Assembly (NCBI GenBank): GCA_049115835.1
Contig: JAGDZN010000011.1
Location: forward strand, 66,541-130,540
From: Reichenbachiella sp.
GTDB lineage: Bacteria > Bacteroidota > Bacteroidia > Cytophagales > Cyclobacteriaceae
Reading direction: 5' to 3'
Length of the DNA: 64,000 nucleotides
The position numbers and the translations under genes were made by a program. This document shows positions 8,035-58,749 of the stretch, one piece after another. Each line of letters starts with the position of its first letter. Positions within the stretch are counted from its first letter, which is position 1. The notes beneath the pieces were generated by a model. It made no database searches, was not told the DNA's origin, and saw only the letters and a program-made list of their open reading frames with translations.

Positions 8035-10848
8035 ATGCCAAAAGATAATAGCATCAAATCTGTACTGATTATAGGAAGTGGACCTATCGTAATTGGACAA
8101 GCATGTGAATTTGATTATGCCGGTTCTCAAGCTGCACGTTCTTTGCGTGAAGAAGGAATAGAGGTGACTTTAATAAACTCAAATCCTGCGACCATTATGA
8201 CGGATGAAGTGACAGCAGATAATATTTATCTAAAGCCACTTACCAAACAATCTATCAGAGAAATTCTCGAAAAGCATGAAATCGATGCGGTTCTTCCTAC
8301 CATGGGAGGACAAACGGCCTTGAACTTGGCGATGGATTGTGATAAAGCTGGGATTTGGAAAAAGCACAATATCAAAGTGATTGGTTCGAATTTCGATGCC
8401 ATAGAAACTACCGAAGATCGTGAGAAATTTCGATTGAAAATGCAAGAGATCGGGGTTGGCGTCTGTAAAGGTCGTACCGCAACTTCATTCCTTGAAGGAA
8501 AAGAAATAGCACAAGAAATTGGGTTTCCATTGATCATCAGGTCTTCATTTACGCTTGGTGGGGCAGGCGGTGGATTTGTGGAAACTCCAGAAGACTTTGA
8601 CAAAGCATTAAATGATGGACTCCATGCTTCGCCAATACATGAAGTACTCATTGAGCAAAGTATTTTGGGTTGGAAAGAATATGAATTGGAAATCATGCGT
8701 GATAGCATTGGCAATTTCATTGTCATATGTTCGATCGAAAATTTCGACCCAATGGGTGTTCACACAGGAGACTCTATCACCGTAGCACCAGCCATGACAC
8801 TTTCTGATACTGTTTATCAGGAAATGAGAAATCAGGCTATTCATATGATTAGTTCAATTGGGGAATTTGCTGGAGGGTGTAACGTGCAGTTCTCTGTTCA
8901 CCCTGAAAATGATGAAATCATTGGTATTGAGATCAACCCGAGAGTATCTCGTTCTTCTGCGCTAGCCTCTAAGGCGACAGGTTATCCAATTGCTAAAATT
9001 GCAGCGAAGTTGGCCGTCGGTTACAACTTGGATGAATTGAATAATCAGATTACCAAAACTACTTCCGCCTTTTTCGAGCCTGCCATAGATTATGTAATTG
9101 TAAAAGTTCCTCGTTGGAATTTTGATAAATTCAAAGGAGCAGATCGTCATTTAGGACTTCAAATGAAGTCAGTTGGAGAAGCCATGGGTATTGGGCGAAA
9201 CTTTCAAGAAGCCTTACAAAAAGCTTGTCAATCTCTCGAGATAAAAAGAAATGGCTTAGGGGCAGATGGTCGTGAACTAAAGAGTCATGACGAATTAGCT
9301 GAAAGCTTAAGACACCCTAGTTGGAATCGTCTTTTCCATATTTATGATTCTTTCAAAATAGGCATCCCATTTAAAACAATTTTGAATCTCACAAAGATCG
9401 ACCCTTGGTTCTTACACCAGATTGAAGACCTAATTGATCTTGAAAAAGAAATTGAAAAATTCAACATCTCTAATCTTTCAAAAGAACTTTTAATAACAGC
9501 AAAGAAAAAAGGATATGCTGACAGGCAGATTGCACACTTAGTCGGTTGCTTAGAAAGTGAGGTCTTCCAAAAAAGACAGGATTTTGATATTAAAAGAGTG
9601 TACAAATTAGTGGACACTTGTGCTGGTGAGTTTGATGCTAAAACGCCTTACTACTACTCTACTTTTGAGGATGAGAATGAATCAACTCCGTCTAATAATA
9701 AAAAAATTATTGTATTGGGTTCAGGACCAAACAGAATTGGCCAGGGAATCGAATTTGATTACTCATGCGTGCATGGCGTTTTAGCTGCCAAAGAATGTGG
9801 CTATGAAACCATTATGATCAATTGTAACCCTGAAACGGTTTCAACTGATTTTGACATTGCTGATAAGCTTTACTTTGAGCCGGTTTTCTGGGAGCACATC
9901 TATGAGATTATCCTGATGGAAAAACCAGAAGGTGTCATCGTACAACTAGGTGGTCAAACGGCATTGAAATTAGCAGAAAAGCTTGAAAAATATGGCATCA
10001 AAATTATTGGCACTAGTTTCAAAGCACTGGACTTGGCTGAGGATAGAGGTTCATTTTCAACATTGTTGAAAGAAAATGACATTCCTTATCCAAAATTTGG
10101 TGTTATAGAAACGGCAGATGAAGCATTGGAATTATCTGCTGAGTTGGGTTACCCACTACTTGTCAGACCTTCTTATGTATTGGGAGGTCAGGGAATGAAA
10201 ATTGTAATCAATGATGAGGAACTAGAGTCTCATGTAGTAGAACTATTCCGAGCGATCCCTGGAAACAGAGTGATGTTAGATCATTTCTTGGATGGCGCAA
10301 TGGAATGTGAAGCGGACGCCATTTGTGACGGTAAAAACGTATATATCATAGGCATCATGCAGCATATAGAACCTGCTGGCATTCATTCAGGAGATTCTTT
10401 TGCCGTGCTACCACCATTCAATCTAGGAGATTTAGTTATTAGAAAAATTGAGGACTATACGAAGAAAATTGCCATCGCATTAGAAACGGTTGGTTTAATC
10501 AATATTCAGTTTGCAGTTAAAAATGATGAGGTATTTATCATAGAAGCAAACCCTAGAGCTTCTCGAACCGTGCCATTCATTTGTAAAGCATATGATGAGC
10601 CTTATGTGAATTATGCGACGAAGGTTATGTTAGGGGAAAAGAAGGTAACTGATTTTAATTTCAACCCTAAAAAAGAGGGTTATGCTATCAAAGAACCAGT
10701 TTTCTCATTCAATAAATTCCCGAATGTAAATAAGGAATTGGGCCCTGAAATGAAATCTACGGGAGAATCTATTTACTTCATTGATGATTTAATGGATGAT
10801 TATTTCATGCAATTGTACAGCGAACGTAACTTATATTTGAGTAGATAA
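8035..10848 (+). CDS. carB: Carbamoyl-phosphate synthase large subunit (short form lacking the C-terminal MGS-like domain)
   Basis: GSGPIVIGQACEFDYAG, two ATP-grasp halves, HTGDS/HSGDS, ends shortly after GPEMKSTGE. Confidence 0.97.
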   Translation: MPKDNSIKSVLIIGSGPIVIGQACEFDYAGSQAARSLREEGIEVTLINSNPATIMTDEVTADNIYLKPLTKQSIREILEKHEIDAVLPTMGGQTALNLAMDCDKAGIWKKHNIKVIGSNFDAIETTEDREKFRLKMQEIGVGVCKGRTATSFLEGKEIAQEIGFPLIIRSSFTLGGAGGGFVETPEDFDKALNDGLHASPIHEVLIEQSILGWKEYELEIMRDSIGNFIVICSIENFDPMGVHTGDSITVAPAMTLSDTVYQEMRNQAIHMISSIGEFAGGCNVQFSVHPENDEIIGIEINPRVSRSSALASKATGYPIAKIAAKLAVGYNLDELNNQITKTTSAFFEPAIDYVIVKVPRWNFDKFKGADRHLGLQMKSVGEAMGIGRNFQEALQKACQSLEIKRNGLGADGRELKSHDELAESLRHPSWNRLFHIYDSFKIGIPFKTILNLTKIDPWFLHQIEDLIDLEKEIEKFNISNLSKELLITAKKKGYADRQIAHLVGCLESEVFQKRQDFDIKRVYKLVDTCAGEFDAKTPYYYSTFEDENESTPSNNKKIIVLGSGPNRIGQGIEFDYSCVHGVLAAKECGYETIMINCNPETVSTDFDIADKLYFEPVFWEHIYEIILMEKPEGVIVQLGGQTALKLAEKLEKYGIKIIGTSFKALDLAEDRGSFSTLLKENDIPYPKFGVIETADEALELSAELGYPLLVRPSYVLGGQGMKIVINDEELESHVVELFRAIPGNRVMLDHFLDGAMECEADAICDGKNVYIIGIMQHIEPAGIHSGDSFAVLPPFNLGDLVIRKIEDYTKKIAIALETVGLINIQFAVKNDEVFIIEANPRASRTVPFICKAYDEPYVNYATKVMLGEKKVTDFNFNPKKEGYAIKEPVFSFNKFPNVNKELGPEMKSTGESIYFIDDLMDDYFMQLYSERNLYLSR

Positions 10849-54958: not shown

Positions 54959-57343
54959 TTATTCTTTGACAAATCTTAGCACTTGTGTCTTATTTTCATC
55001 TTTTATTAAAAGAAGGTAAGTCCCTATGCTGATTTCTGCTACATCTAGTGATTCATTTTGCAGCGTAAAAGAACCATCTAATACAGTTTTTCCCATCATA
55101 TCCACGATTTGAAATTCTCTGTTTTCACTCTTCAAATCATCCGATACAATGTTCAATCTATTGGTCACTGGATTAGGCCATATATTCAATTGAACAGGTG
55201 TGTTTTGCAATCCTAAAATGGCAATGACATTAGCCACCGATGCTGCAGAGCACATTTCTTCCGAAGTTACAACCACGGTATAATCTCCTCCGAAAAAATA
55301 GGTTCTTTCCACACTCAAAGTCTGATTGGTTTCTCCCTCCAAGGCTTCTCCACTCTCATACCATTGATTTCCTGATTCCGCATCAGAAGTCAATACAACA
55401 TCTCTACCATTATCACTTACCACTGAAATGACTGGAGTGGCTACGTCATTCACTACAACTTCAAATGAAATAGAAGTAGCGCAACCTTCTCTATCTACTA
55501 AGAGGCTTGCAGTATATACGCCGACTTCAGTGAATGTAAAATCCGCATCGCCAGTAGTATTTTCATCGATAGATCCATCCCCGTCAAAATCCCATTCATA
55601 AGTATCGGTGTCTACTGCATTTACAGATAAATCTGAAAAAATCGTTGGCTCACCCACACAGGCCGCGCCAACACTAAAATCGGCTAATGCACCACTACAA
55701 ATATTAATGGTGACAGAATCTGTATTACTCCACTCCTGTTGATCATTAAATGATCTAACATATAATTGGTGTTCGCCAACTTCCAACCCTGCACTGGACA
55801 AAGTCAAGTCCAAATCAATTTCTCGAGAGGGCGTTTCTATAATTGCTTGAGTACCATTTCCAATGCCAGGATCTGTGCCTAACGCGTATTCTACTAAAGT
55901 AATATTTCTTGCAACATCTACATAAAATGGAGTGCTCTCAATTAGACCCCAAATATTTTTTTCATCCCTTCCTCTCAAATTAAAAGTATGAAACCCAACA
56001 CTCAACCCTTCTGTCGGTATCAATTCAATGACATCAATACTAGGTAAATCAGAAACAGGAATAAAGGTACCATTACCAGTGCCTGGATCCTCATTGAAGA
56101 AGTATTCCAGTTGCACCAAATTAGGGTTTGTCAATGATGTGGATTGACCAATGAAAAACGGTTTGCTTTCAATCAATCCCCACACATCATTTTCATCCAA
56201 TGCGCGAAATGTGATCACATGAAAACCTTCTGATAAAGTTGTTGTAGATACGTTTTCAAGAAGATTAACATTTGTTTCCGTTCCAAGAACGATTTCTATA
56301 CCATTTCCATGACCAGGATCTGAATCGATAAAATATTCTATTTTCTGAAGAATGTTTTGTTCCGTCGCAACGGATTGATTGACATAAAAGGGTTTGCTTT
56401 CAACAATTCCCCACACGCTATTTTCATCCATGGCCCGAACCGTGATTGTATGGAAACCATTTAAGCCTGTAGTTGGTACGTTTTCCGTAAAGTCAAAGTT
56501 GGCTCCTGGACTAATTGCTATAGATACTCCATCACCTTGCCCGGGATCAGCATCGATATAATACTCCATGTTTGTAATATTGTTTTGACCTATGGTAGAT
56601 GAAAGTGAAATGTAAAAAGGTTGATATTCGCTTAATCCCCATACTCCATTTTCATCTTGAGCCCTAAAACCAATACTATGAAACCCTTGTGTTAAACCTA
56701 CGGTACTAACATCCTCCGTAAAATTCAAATCCGTTGAAGAAGCAATGGAAATGGCTGTTCCAGAACCCTGAACTGGATCAGTATCAATATAATACTCCAT
56801 GGCTGAGATATTGTTTTGTGCCAAGGTCACAGACTGGTTGATATAGAAAGGTTTGCTTTCGACCAATCCCCATGTTCCTTTCTCATCCTGAGCTCTAAAC
56901 CCAATCGTGTGAAATCCTTCTGCAAGTCCAGTAGTAGCAATATTTTGCGAAAAATCTAGTTCAGGAGAATTTGAAATGGAAATGGCTTCTCCAGATCCTT
57001 GAATCGGAGCAAAATCGATATAATACTCCATGGCAGAGATATTATTTTGGTTCAAGGATATTGATTGGGTAATGAAAAAAGGCTTTTTTTCAATTAAACC
57101 CCATACTTCATTTTCATCCTTGGCCAAAACACTTAAGGTGTGAAATCCTTCGGATAATCCAATGGTGGAAATGTTTGTAGAAATATCAATCGTTTCGTTG
57201 GCAGTAACAGAAATAGCCATTCGATTACCTTCCCCTGGATCAACATCGAAAAAATATGCTAATTCAGTGATTTCTGGGACTTGTGAAAAACCATTCAGGC
57301 AAACCCCGATAAACAGGCAGGAAATTATCTGCTGTATTTTCAT
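54959..57343 (-). CDS. T9SS-secreted protein with seven ~75-aa DPG repeats, PKD domain and Ig-like domain
   Basis: Seven units EY(F/Y)xDxDPGxGxG...GFH...RAxDExxVWGLxExxPF; PKD YEWDFDGDG; C-terminal IWPNPVTNRLNI...RFVKE. Confidence 0.82.
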   Translation of the reverse strand: MKIQQIISCLFIGVCLNGFSQVPEITELAYFFDVDPGEGNRMAISVTANETIDISTNISTIGLSEGFHTLSVLAKDENEVWGLIEKKPFFITQSISLNQNNISAMEYYIDFAPIQGSGEAISISNSPELDFSQNIATTGLAEGFHTIGFRAQDEKGTWGLVESKPFYINQSVTLAQNNISAMEYYIDTDPVQGSGTAISIASSTDLNFTEDVSTVGLTQGFHSIGFRAQDENGVWGLSEYQPFYISLSSTIGQNNITNMEYYIDADPGQGDGVSIAISPGANFDFTENVPTTGLNGFHTITVRAMDENSVWGIVESKPFYVNQSVATEQNILQKIEYFIDSDPGHGNGIEIVLGTETNVNLLENVSTTTLSEGFHVITFRALDENDVWGLIESKPFFIGQSTSLTNPNLVQLEYFFNEDPGTGNGTFIPVSDLPSIDVIELIPTEGLSVGFHTFNLRGRDEKNIWGLIESTPFYVDVARNITLVEYALGTDPGIGNGTQAIIETPSREIDLDLTLSSAGLEVGEHQLYVRSFNDQQEWSNTDSVTINICSGALADFSVGAACVGEPTIFSDLSVNAVDTDTYEWDFDGDGSIDENTTGDADFTFTEVGVYTASLLVDREGCATSISFEVVVNDVATPVISVVSDNGRDVVLTSDAESGNQWYESGEALEGETNQTLSVERTYFFGGDYTVVVTSEEMCSAASVANVIAILGLQNTPVQLNIWPNPVTNRLNIVSDDLKSENREFQIVDMMGKTVLDGSFTLQNESLDVAEISIGTYLLLIKDENKTQVLRFVKE
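55697..57271 (-). repeat. Seven tandem intragenic repeats of ~225-231 bp encoding the DPG domains
   Basis: Protein-level alignment of aa ~25-549; DNA similarity visible, e.g. recurring aatactccatggc and ccccaNacN. Confidence 0.85.
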
Positions 57344-57363
57344 ATCAAGTTTTTTCCTAATTA

Positions 57364-58449
57364 TTAGTTTCCTCTTGCTTTGATCTGAACTTCCAAGTCA
57401 TCTCCTTCTACCACCATGGTTGGAACAGTTATAGACTGAATCAATGGAATCAGTGTACCTTGTAAACTAAAAGGAACAGCTCCACCGTAAACACCTATAT
57501 CCGTACCTCCTTCTCCATTTCCGATGCAAGGAGAGCCTGCAAGAGGAGCAGGGTTAAGTACTGCAAAATCTGCTGACTGTGTGTGTGGAACATTGGTTAA
57601 TTGAGGATCTGCATCTATGTTATTTACACTAGTATTCCCAACTGTAGTGGCAAAGCTGACAGCTCCCAGATACTGAATATTATTTTCAAAAGCGTTGTTT
57701 GAAAACGAACTATGGGCTGTAGGCTGCTTTCGTATAAACACATTATTTTTTACAGAATTGCTGTAAAAATTATAAAATGCATGGTCGTTACCGTCACTTC
57801 CAACAAAAATATTATTCTCTACGCTTGTCCCGTTACTCGCTTGCACTGCACCATGTTCATTGAGAGATGTGCCATAAATTATATTGTTGGCGATAACAAT
57901 ATTGGACATAGCACCATGTAGTAATAATATGGTCATATCATCGTTCGAAAGGCTCCATCCCATTACATTATTTCGAATAATGATATTGGATAAGGTAGTT
58001 GTAACATCAGTGTGTACAACTCTTCTAACTAGACCATTTTCAATAAGCAAATTAGACAAGGCTCCTGCTGTTCCTCCTAATAGAATTGCATCATTAACAA
58101 ATACACCTGAAATGCGAGTACCTGATGCGGCAGGGTCTGCAATAATGATGGTATCAACTCTTGATCGGAGCGTTCCATCAATATCTGGATTCAACCCAAT
58201 TCCAAAAATATTCAAGGGCTTGTCAATAGTGGCTATTCCATAATTCGTGTTACCTGGTGTTATGTGAATGATGTCGCCACTTGTGGTCGCTGCAATAGCA
58301 TCCTGAAGTGCTGTGGCACCAGTAAAGACGTTGGTGCCTCCTAACGCACCAGGATTATTGTCAGCTGTGAAGATCGTCTGCGAAAAAGTATTGTTCGTGA
58401 GAAAAATAGTGCAGAATAGAGATAATAGTAGTGGTTTGTAATTTTTCAT
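57364..58449 (-). CDS. Secreted right-handed parallel beta-helix protein
   Basis: Signal peptide; LQDAIAATTSGDIIHITPG N-cap; Asn-ladder repeats (IRNNVM, IANNII, VENNIF, VKNNVF, FENNI); GTDIGVYGG; no T9SS domain. Confidence 0.78.
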   Translation of the reverse strand: MKNYKPLLLSLFCTIFLTNNTFSQTIFTADNNPGALGGTNVFTGATALQDAIAATTSGDIIHITPGNTNYGIATIDKPLNIFGIGLNPDIDGTLRSRVDTIIIADPAASGTRISGVFVNDAILLGGTAGALSNLLIENGLVRRVVHTDVTTTLSNIIIRNNVMGWSLSNDDMTILLLHGAMSNIVIANNIIYGTSLNEHGAVQASNGTSVENNIFVGSDGNDHAFYNFYSNSVKNNVFIRKQPTAHSSFSNNAFENNIQYLGAVSFATTVGNTSVNNIDADPQLTNVPHTQSADFAVLNPAPLAGSPCIGNGEGGTDIGVYGGAVPFSLQGTLIPLIQSITVPTMVVEGDDLEVQIKARGN

Positions 58450-58579
58450 GTTGAGGATTGATTTGGTCTAGATAGAATTTAGTCATTATTAACCTGAATT
58501 TCAAGTCATTACAGATATGGCTTTTATAAAAGATGCCTATTGACATTTTATGTCTAGTCTATTTTTCTTGAATTTTTAG

Positions 58580-58587
58580 TAGTTTTG
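58580..58587 (+). promoter_or_regulatory. Putative -7 promoter box upstream of tnaA
   Basis: TAGTTTTG matches TAnnTTTG; implies a ~155-nt leader. Confidence 0.4.
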
Positions 58588-58749
58588 TAACACAAAATCG
58601 TCGCTGGCGCTTACGTGAAGACTTATTTCAATCCATATCAAAACGTTAAGAATAGAGATCCTTATTTCTATAATTAATTCTAATCTGATTCTTCATTCAG
58701 AAGAATTCCCTCTATTTATTTTTTTACTTCTCATTCATCAATTTTTGAT

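What the first reader, a model, noticed from the sequence alone, without database searches (positions are those of the whole stretch)
54959..58449. Beta-helix protein paired with a seven-repeat 'DPG' T9SS protein: candidate piggy-back secretion or multivalent display system
Seen: a two-gene unit with a 20-nt gap. The first gene encodes a secreted beta-helix protein with no T9SS signal, ending in a short isolated beta segment (LIPLIQSITVPTMVVEGDDLEVQIKARGN). The second encodes a T9SS cargo with seven ~75-aa repeats (EYxxDxDPGxGxG...GFH...RAxDExxxWG), a PKD domain and an Ig-like domain. The repeats are short for a complete Ig fold. Inference: each repeat may be completed by the partner's C-terminal strands (strand complementation), so the T9SS protein would carry or display several copies of the beta-helix lectin/enzyme, like a mini-scaffoldin. 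I know of no described function for this repeat or pairing.
Basis: partly seen in the sequence, partly recalled or inferred. Interest (0 to 1): 0.62.

Follow-up and report, generated by a model that had tools for sequence, protein, structure and literature searches.

The report
Beta-helix head with T9SS stalk partner
A secreted beta-helix protein with no export tag is always encoded directly upstream of, or fused to, a type IX secretion surface protein that begins with an undescribed repeat, so the two probably form one head-and-stalk surface structure, though how the untagged head leaves the cell is untested.

Summary
Two minus-strand genes lie 20 nt apart. The first encodes a 361-aa right-handed beta-helix protein (BH) with a signal peptide and no T9SS C-terminal domain (CTD). 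The second encodes a 794-aa protein with seven ~77-aa "DPG" repeats, a PKD domain and a type A T9SS CTD.

- BH→DPG adjacency held at all 48 junctions found, with a median gap of 19 nt over the 43 junctions measured.
- This covers 34/34 testable loci found from BH and 13/13 found from DPG proteins, across the FCB superphylum.
- Seven natural BH–DPG fusions keep the same order.
- The DPG array almost always starts at the mature N-terminus.
- The only BH without a partner is an IS-disrupted wreck.

The DPG repeat has no Pfam or NCBIfam model but occurs in about 17,500 representative proteins.

AlphaFold2 folds three repeats alone at pLDDT 90.7 as FN3/Ig-like modules. The BH tail is ordered in the monomer (pLDDT 81–89).

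Best reading: a split head-and-stalk surface protein, with BH docked on the N-terminal DPG array and co-exported by T9SS. Docking and piggy-back export are inferred, not shown.

The parts
58450..58749 (-). 300-nt upstream intergenic region, the presumed promoter region of the two-gene unit. It is shared divergently with tnaA.
   Evidence: No exact Bacteroidota TAnnTTTG motif was found, and only weak sigma-70-like matches. No promoter is mapped.
58381..58449 (-). BH signal peptide, residues 1-23 (MKNYKPLLLSLFCTIFLTNNTFS|Q). It is SPI-type with Gln at +1.
   Evidence: Read from the sequence. The model shows a helix at residues 5-19. Of 134 relatives, 123 have K/R in the first 8 residues and none has a lipobox.
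57481..58380 (-). BH right-handed parallel beta-helix core, about residues 24-323. It has a GDIIH cap motif and an Asn ladder (N160, N188/189, N213, N236, N257).
   Evidence: AlphaFold2 mean pLDDT 93.8, pTM 0.89. Foldseek best matches are PL6 alginate lyase 7dmk (E 1.8e-5), GH91 and Pel9A. The family profile hits 7dmk and 2pyg in the PDB.
57367..57480 (-). BH C-terminal extension, residues 324-361 (two strands, 336-341 and 355-359), ending ...IKARGN-COOH. It is the candidate docking element.
   Evidence: It is among the most conserved parts of the family at 2.5-2.6 bits. The chain ends 3-4 residues after the last strand in 121 of 137 relatives, most often with KAKGN. pLDDT is 81-89. In fusions it is followed within about 10 residues by the first DPG repeat.
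57344..57363 (-). 20-nt spacer between the two genes.
   Evidence: The median spacer is 19 nt across the 43 BH->DPG junctions measured.
57284..57343 (-). Signal peptide of the DPG protein, residues 1-20 (…LNGFS|Q).
   Evidence: Read from the sequence. 167 of 207 relatives have a hydrophobic region followed by xQ.
55676..57265 (-). Seven DPG repeats, residues 27-556. Window coordinates of the repeats: 57032-57265, 56801-57031, 56570-56800, 56342-56569, 56111-56341, 55895-56110 and 55676-55894.
   Evidence: For repeats 1-3, AlphaFold2 gives pLDDT 90.7 and Foldseek gives FN3/Ig-like arrays. No Pfam or NCBIfam model matches. About 17,545 representative proteins carry the repeat.
55457..55660 (-). 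PKD domain, residues 562-629.
   Evidence: PF18911 at 31.2 bits.
55184..55456 (-).
   Evidence: No family hit. This is inferred only.
54962..55183 (-). Type A T9SS C-terminal sorting domain, residues 721-794.
   Evidence: PF18962 at 46.1 bits and TIGR04183 at 45.3 bits.

Best explanation
The two genes encode one split 'head-and-stalk' cell-surface protein. Both products are exported by Sec and cut by signal peptidase I. The second protein is a T9SS cargo whose CTD takes it through the outer membrane and anchors it. Its far end, the mature N-terminus, is an array of FN3/Ig-like DPG modules. The first protein is a probably non-catalytic right-handed beta-helix 'head'. It binds non-covalently to that N-terminal array, most likely through its conserved C-terminal 40-60 residues. 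It reaches the surface by travelling through the T9SS as a folded complex with its partner.

Shown here:
- the gene pairing
- the natural fusions
- the N-terminal position of the array
- the folds of both proteins
- the type A CTD

Inferred:
- physical docking
- the tail as the docking interface
- co-export through the T9SS
- an adhesive or binding role
For: **Synteny**
- BH is followed by DPG on the same strand at all 48 junctions found; the median gap over the 43 measured is 19 nt.
- This holds in 34/34 testable loci found from BH and 13/13 found from DPG proteins.
- The loci come from Cytophagales, Flavobacteriales, Chitinophagales, Bacteroidales, Balneolales and Ignavibacteria-type MAGs.

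**Natural fusions**
- There are seven: L021, L035, P0238, P0239, P0440, P0456 and P0473.
- In each, BH comes first and the DPG array starts about 10-30 residues after the BH tail.
- In these lineages the head is therefore part of a T9SS cargo and ends up outside the cell.

**Position of the array**
- The first repeat starts at residue 20-39 in 177 of 214 DPG proteins.
- It starts within the first 50 residues in 124 of 133 top representatives.
- The split falls exactly in the inter-domain linker.

**BH tail**
- The tail is as conserved as the N-terminal cap.
- The polypeptide always stops just after its last strand.

**Duplication and decay**
- The pair duplicates as a unit in L002, L047 and L051.
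- The one partnerless BH is an IS-disrupted remnant.

**No catalytic set in BH**
- Only D59 is near-invariant among charged residues.
- Nothing is conserved where the PL6 Lys/Arg/Ca site aligns.

**T9SS use**
- The partner carries a type A or type B CTD.
- Other T9SS cargo genes lie in the window.
Against: - No interaction was predicted or measured. No multimer model was possible, and the tools do not return model coordinates or PAE.
- The BH tail is modelled as ordered within the monomer, so it need not be a free docking arm.
- The first DPG repeat is not a distinct conserved subtype, which a dedicated docking module might be expected to be.
- I found no report of a CTD-less protein crossing the outer membrane by riding on a T9SS cargo in a limited literature search.
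- Conserved operon order and fusions also fit a purely functional link.
Confidence: 0.5

Rival explanations
1. Each DPG repeat is an incomplete Ig fold that is completed by the C-terminal strands of one BH molecule (donor-strand complementation). One stalk would then display up to seven heads, like a mini-scaffoldin.
For: - Loci with 2-3 BH paralogues, all keeping the tail, precede a single DPG gene (L017, L027, L029, L034, L035, L043).
- Fused proteins still have free BH genes upstream (L021, L035).
- The repeats are equivalent rather than having a specialised first repeat.
- DSSP finds only four regular strands per repeat.
- C-terminal donor strands are used by type V pili in the same phylum (PMC13655056).
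Against: - Repeats fold alone at pLDDT above 90 and match complete FN3/Ig modules.
- The BH tail is ordered in the monomer.
- The tail shows no homology to the repeat.
- Fusions carry one BH for 5-10 repeats.
- BH proteins have no lipoprotein precursor or other type V pilin features.
Confidence: 0.12
2. BH is an accessory factor, not a stable passenger. It would act as a periplasmic chaperone or holdase, or as a maturation factor, keeping the DPG array export-competent. It would then be released, or act in cis when fused.
For: - Gene order is strict, with BH translated first and tightly coupled to the DPG gene.
- BH has no CTD.
- BH has no conserved catalytic residues.
Against: - In seven fusions BH is covalently part of the exported cargo. 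That is unexpected for a periplasm-only helper.
- A 340-residue rigid beta-helix is an unusual chaperone.
- DPG repeats are predicted to fold well on their own.
Confidence: 0.15
3. The link is functional only. BH would be a polysaccharide-active enzyme or binding protein working in the periplasm or in vesicles on material captured by the surface DPG adhesin. Fusions would then be ordinary enzyme-plus-binding-module architectures.
For: - The fold is closest to PL6 alginate lyases, GH91 and pectate lyases.
- The genomic context is that of a marine polysaccharide degrader, including a porphyranase-like T9SS cargo in the window.
Against: - No conserved Lys/Arg/Glu occurs in the region aligned to the PL6 active site, which is the least conserved part of the family.
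- A loose functional link rarely gives adjacency at 48 of 48 junctions, an exact N-terminal position of the array and loss of both genes together.
Confidence: 0.15

Closest known systems
T9SS type A / type B CTD cargo adhesins (for example SprB or RemA-type surface proteins with Ig-like, PKD or cadherin stalks)
   Same: The DPG protein has a Sec signal peptide, a stalk of beta-sandwich modules and a Por_Secre_tail CTD. Relatives carry CHU_C CTDs followed by a PorP/SprF gene.
   Different: The N-terminal array is a repeat with no curated family. It is always accompanied by a separately encoded, CTD-less beta-helix partner, or fused to one. No such obligate partner gene is described for known cargo, as far as my limited search showed.
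Right-handed parallel beta-helix polysaccharide lyases and epimerases (PL6 alginate lyase BcAlyPL6 7dmk, AlgE4 2pyg, Pel9A 1ru4)
   Same: They share the fold, the Asn ladder and the GDxI N-terminal cap.
   Different: Identity is 11-16% and TM-score 0.3-0.45. The PL6 catalytic Lys/Arg and Ca-binding residues are not conserved. BH also has a conserved two-strand C-terminal extension.
Tandem FN3/BIg arrays of adhesins (C. thermocellum CbhA FN3-like modules 3pdd, Salmonella SiiE 2yn3, GbpA domains 8gum/2xwx) and the Y_Y_Y domain (PF07495)
   Same: They share the beta-sandwich repeat fold and a rod-like tandem arrangement. The C-terminal half of related DPG repeats gives partial Y_Y_Y, GbpA_D3 and Ig_J hits.
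   Different: The window's repeats hit none of these models, even at E<=10. There is no significant PDB sequence relative. The signature EY..D.DPG.G.G...G.H...R...W is conserved at 90% or more and is specific to this repeat.
Cohesin-dockerin scaffoldins (cellulosome)
   Different: Neither window protein has a cohesin or dockerin domain, and no binding has been shown. In some related loci real Cohesin or Dockerin domains appear next to the module or in place of the CTD.
Donor-strand exchange in type V pili (FimA/Mfa1) and hitchhiker export in Tat or T2SS
   Same: Type V pili use C-terminal strands as a donor element in Bacteroidota (PMC13655056). Tat and T2SS export folded complexes carrying a signal-less partner (PMC9251779).
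   Different: BH and DPG proteins are not lipoprotein pilins. No groove or missing strand is predicted. Hitchhiking has not been shown for T9SS.

Membership tests
T9SS type A cargo (DPG protein) | C-terminal Por_Secre_tail / TIGR04183 domain scoring above the curated cut-off | tested here: met
   PF18962 scores 46.1 bits against a cut-off of 27. TIGR04183 scores 45.3 bits against 23. Both cover residues 721-794.
T9SS type A cargo (DPG protein) | N-terminal Sec signal peptide | tested here: met
   MKIQQIISCLFIGVCLNGFS|Q, read from the sequence. The same pattern occurs in 167 of 207 relatives. No dedicated predictor was run.
T9SS type A cargo (DPG protein) | Secretion depends on the T9SS machinery | not testable with these tools
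   The only indirect evidence is two other CTD proteins in the window.
T9SS cargo (BH protein) | Type A or type B CTD | tested here: not met
   No Pfam or NCBIfam hit at E<=0.1. The chain ends 38 residues after the beta-helix.
Right-handed parallel beta-helix fold (BH protein) | Beta-helix fold with stacked turns and an Asn ladder | tested here: met
   AlphaFold2 pLDDT 93.8. Foldseek probability is 1.0 to PL6, GH91 and PL9 structures. N160, N188, N189, N213, N236 and N257 are conserved at 95% or more.
PL6 polysaccharide lyase (BH protein) | Catalytic Lys and Arg plus Ca-binding acidic residues on the helix face | tested here: not met
   The region aligned to the 7dmk active site (query residues about 145-243) has no charged residue conserved at 50% or more, and it is the least conserved part of the family. 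The alignment is weak, so this is not absolute.
Y_Y_Y / FN3-like beta-sandwich (DPG repeat) | Beta-sandwich fold | tested here: met
   pLDDT 90.7. The Foldseek best match is 3pdd at E 8.9e-5, probability 1.0, with tandem FN3/BIg hits. TM-scores are low because three domains were compared at once.
Y_Y_Y / FN3-like beta-sandwich (DPG repeat) | Match to the Pfam Y_Y_Y model (PF07495) | tested here: inconclusive
   The six window repeats scanned (1, 2, 4-7) give no hit at E<=10. Relatives P0161 and P0153 hit profile positions 31-61 only, inside DPG repeats.
Donor-strand complementation systems | Acceptor domain that lacks a strand and is unstable alone, with a donor strand that is free in the monomer | tested here: not met
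   The repeats are confident alone and the tail is ordered in the monomer at pLDDT 81-89. Monomer models cannot exclude edge-strand docking.
Cohesin-dockerin scaffoldin | Cohesin modules on the scaffold and a dockerin on the passenger | tested here: not met
   Neither domain is present in either window protein.

The most novel reading that the evidence does not exclude
The beta-helix protein would be the first example of a hitchhiker in type IX secretion. It is a CTD-less passenger that assembles in the periplasm onto the N-terminal DPG array of its partner, with its last strand pairing against the first strand of a repeat. It would then be pulled through the SprA translocon as a folded complex. 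With several BH paralogues per stalk, the array would act as a multivalent display platform. The DPG repeat would be a large unrecognised family of docking modules, with about 17,500 representative proteins.
Probability: 0.3. Interest if true: 0.8.

Novelty: new variant of a known kind. Interest (0 to 1): 0.6.

Why it matters
T9SS export is understood to need a CTD on every cargo. This module is widespread and undescribed, and in it a CTD-less protein is tied to a CTD-bearing partner. The tie shows in gene order, in natural fusions and in loss of both genes together. That gives a direct, easily tested case for co-export of folded complexes through the T9SS.

The work also defines two uncurated families, which would improve annotation of thousands of 'hypothetical' surface proteins in marine and soil Bacteroidota:
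- the DPG repeat, found in about 17,500 representative proteins with up to 52 copies per protein
- its beta-helix partner family

Tried and rejected
- **Sequence searches against solved structures.** Both single proteins gave nothing useful. The DPG profile gave only chance-level Ig hits.
- **Metagenome scan with the repeat alignment.** It returned only 2 loci, so reverse co-occurrence was sampled gene by gene instead.
- **First genome scan.** The 49-sequence alignment was too divergent and the scan failed. It was repeated with closer sequences.
- **Is the BH tail a half repeat?** hhalign of the BH tail against the DPG repeat rejected this (probability 0.9%).
- **Is the first DPG repeat a specialised docking subtype?** Rejected. 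Across proteins, first-to-first identity is 40% and first-to-internal is also 40%. Within a protein it is 53-58%.
- **Is BH a PL6-type lyase?** Rejected, because no catalytic residues are conserved.
- **Is BH a lipoprotein or a type V pilin-like precursor?** Rejected, with 0 of 134 relatives carrying a lipobox.
- **Transcript evidence for co-transcription.** No public run holds the region.
- **Promoter and terminator.** No Bacteroidota -7 motif or convincing terminator was found.
- **Literature searches.** No paper turned up on T9SS piggy-back or CTD-less co-secretion.
- **Modelling a natural fusion.** I considered modelling P0238 in place of the window proteins. I chose the monomers because the tool returns no contacts, so a monomer tail pLDDT was the cleaner test.
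Full report
**Observation**

The region holds two minus-strand ORFs. The first runs 57364..58449 and encodes 361 aa; I call it BH. The second runs 54959..57343 and encodes 794 aa; I call it the DPG protein. They are separated by TAA plus a 20-nt spacer. No convincing terminator lies between them.

The unit is isolated. tnaA diverges upstream, and a CotH gene converges downstream with 9 nt between the stop codons.

The DPG protein has seven repeats of 72-78 aa at residues 27-556. After them come a PKD_4 domain (residues 562-629) and a type A T9SS CTD (residues 721-794), both above curated cut-offs.

BH has no family hit and no CTD. Every factual part of the finding is confirmed, except that the 'Ig-like domain' at residues 630-720 has no hit.

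**What the two proteins are**

BH belongs to a family of about 340-390-aa proteins (117 hits, more).
- All have SPI-type signal peptides and none has a lipobox.
- AlphaFold2 with a 124-sequence alignment gives a right-handed parallel beta-helix, with pLDDT 93.8 and pTM 0.89.
- Foldseek and a profile search place it nearest PL6 alginate lyases, GH91 and Pel9A. This is fold-level similarity only, at 11-16% identity and TM 0.3-0.45.
- The conserved residues are Gly, Asn and Pro plus D59 of the cap motif. The stretch that aligns to the PL6 active site is the least conserved part.
- I therefore read BH as a binding or structural module rather than a known type of enzyme. This is an inference.

After the helix ends, at the motif GSPxxxxGxxGTDxGVxGG around residue 323, comes a 38-residue extension.
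- The extension is as conserved as the N-terminal cap, at 2.5-2.6 bits.
- The chain stops 3-4 residues after its last strand in 121 of 137 relatives, most often as KAKGN.
- In the monomer model the extension forms two strands at pLDDT 81-89.

**The DPG repeat**

The repeat has no Pfam or NCBIfam model and no significant PDB relative by sequence. In relatives, the C-terminal half of the repeat gives partial hits to Y_Y_Y, GbpA_D3 and Ig_J, and these hits fall inside DPG repeats.

AlphaFold2 on residues 22-258, without any partner, gives mean pLDDT 90.7 with four regular strands per repeat. Foldseek matches tandem FN3/BIg arrays: CbhA FN3-like modules, SiiE, GbpA and phage lambda J Ig-like domains.

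Across 84 diverse repeats, E, Y, D, P, G, G, G, H and R are conserved at 90% or more. That is unusual for a pure spacer and suggests a metal or ligand site in each repeat, which is an inference.

A profile search of 1.84 billion representatives finds 17,545 proteins at E<=1e-3 and 8,644 at E<=1e-10. Some carry up to 52 repeats.

**The pairing**

Starting from BH, a scan of one genome per species gave 37 loci.
- In 34 of 34 testable loci, the gene directly downstream on the same strand carries DPG repeats.
- Two loci end at a contig edge.
- One locus (L016) is an IS insertion that removed the rear of BH and the whole DPG array together.

Starting from DPG proteins chosen without regard to BH, 13 of 13 testable genes have a BH gene directly upstream.

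Across all loci there are 48 BH→DPG junctions; over the 43 measured, the median gap is 19 nt. The loci come from Cytophagales, Flavobacteriales, Chitinophagales, Bacteroidales, Balneolales and Ignavibacteria-type MAGs.

Further regularities:
- The pair duplicates as a unit in L002, L047 and L051.
- Two or three BH paralogues, all keeping the tail, can precede one DPG gene.
- Seven natural fusions exist: L021, L035, P0238, P0239, P0440, P0456 and P0473. All have BH first, with the first repeat about 10-30 residues after the BH tail.
- In unfused proteins the array begins right after the signal peptide, in 177 of 214 proteins and in 124 of 133 top representatives.
- Behind the array the proteins vary: PKD, Big_9, cadherin, LRR, LamG, TIG or SprB repeats. 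They end in a type A or type B CTD, and type B is followed by a PorP/SprF gene.

**Mechanism**

The fusions place BH at the far end of T9SS cargo, so in those lineages it is extracellular. The split form cuts exactly in the linker between the BH tail and repeat 1 and gives each half its own signal peptide.

The simplest reading is that the two halves reassemble, and that BH, which has no CTD, leaves the cell bound to its partner. The T9SS is described as moving folded proteins across the outer membrane (PMC9251779), and CTDs bind inside the translocon pore (PMC10994853). So a folded complex is conceivable, but I found no report of it.

The fused geometry suggests that the last BH strand lies next to the first strand of repeat 1. 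That would be edge-strand pairing across the cut, and it is speculation.

The repeats do not look incomplete. They fold confidently alone. The BH tail is ordered in the monomer. The tail is unrelated in sequence to the repeat.

The first repeat is not a special subtype. That argues against a dedicated docking repeat but is compatible with several equivalent sites. Multi-BH loci give weak support for multivalency.

I could not run a multimer model or inspect coordinates. Docking itself, its site and its stoichiometry therefore stay open.

**Novelty and verdict**

The folds and the secretion tag are ordinary. Three things are not:
- a very large uncurated repeat family
- its fixed N-terminal position
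- its invariable beta-helix partner without a sorting domain

I class this as a new variant of a known kind: a T9SS surface protein with a separately encoded head subunit. It is of real interest because it makes T9SS co-export directly testable.

Noticed in passing
L016:7941-11670: An IS transposase ORF (8512..9540) cuts the BH gene at about residue 151. The next ORF is only the LRR plus type A CTD rear of a DPG-type protein. The rear half of BH and the whole DPG array were therefore lost together.
   Followed up: partly
L051:3891-11242; L043:6001-8289: In L051, two BH→DPG pairs have DPG proteins that lack a T9SS CTD. They are followed by two Cohesin-domain proteins, one of which carries Por_Secre_tail. 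In L043 the DPG protein (P0186) carries a weak Dockerin_1 hit in place of a CTD. This suggests cohesin-dockerin anchoring of the module in some Bacteroidota.
   Followed up: no
L047:4905-13930: The triad BH - DPG protein with a type B (CHU_C) CTD - PorP/SprF is duplicated in tandem.
   Followed up: partly
L041, L043, L047, L048, L049, L051 (flanks of the pair): HisKA_3 sensor kinase genes (often TPR or 7TMR-DISM types) and GerE/LuxR response regulator genes lie next to the pair in six of the loci fetched from DPG proteins. None lies next to the pair in the window.
   Followed up: no
P0354 (4532 aa), P0355-P0358: These are giant proteins with 31-52 DPG repeats. I could not check whether they also have a BH partner.
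   Followed up: no
L032 and L033: A contig binned as Desulfobulbaceae carries a BH/DPG pair whose proteins have the same lengths and end sequences as those of an Ignavibacteriae MAG. The Desulfobulbaceae contig is probably mis-binned.
   Followed up: no
window:20144-22429 and window:44994-48608: Two further T9SS cargo genes lie in the window. One has porphyranase beta-sandwich domains plus Por_Secre_tail. The other has FG-GAP, ASPIC and Big_2 domains plus Por_Secre_tail.
   Followed up: partly
window:53459-54949 and window:58750-60129: A CotH-family gene converges on the DPG gene with only 9 nt between the stop codons. A tryptophanase gene (TnaA equivalog, 812 bits) diverges from the BH gene.
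   Followed up: partly
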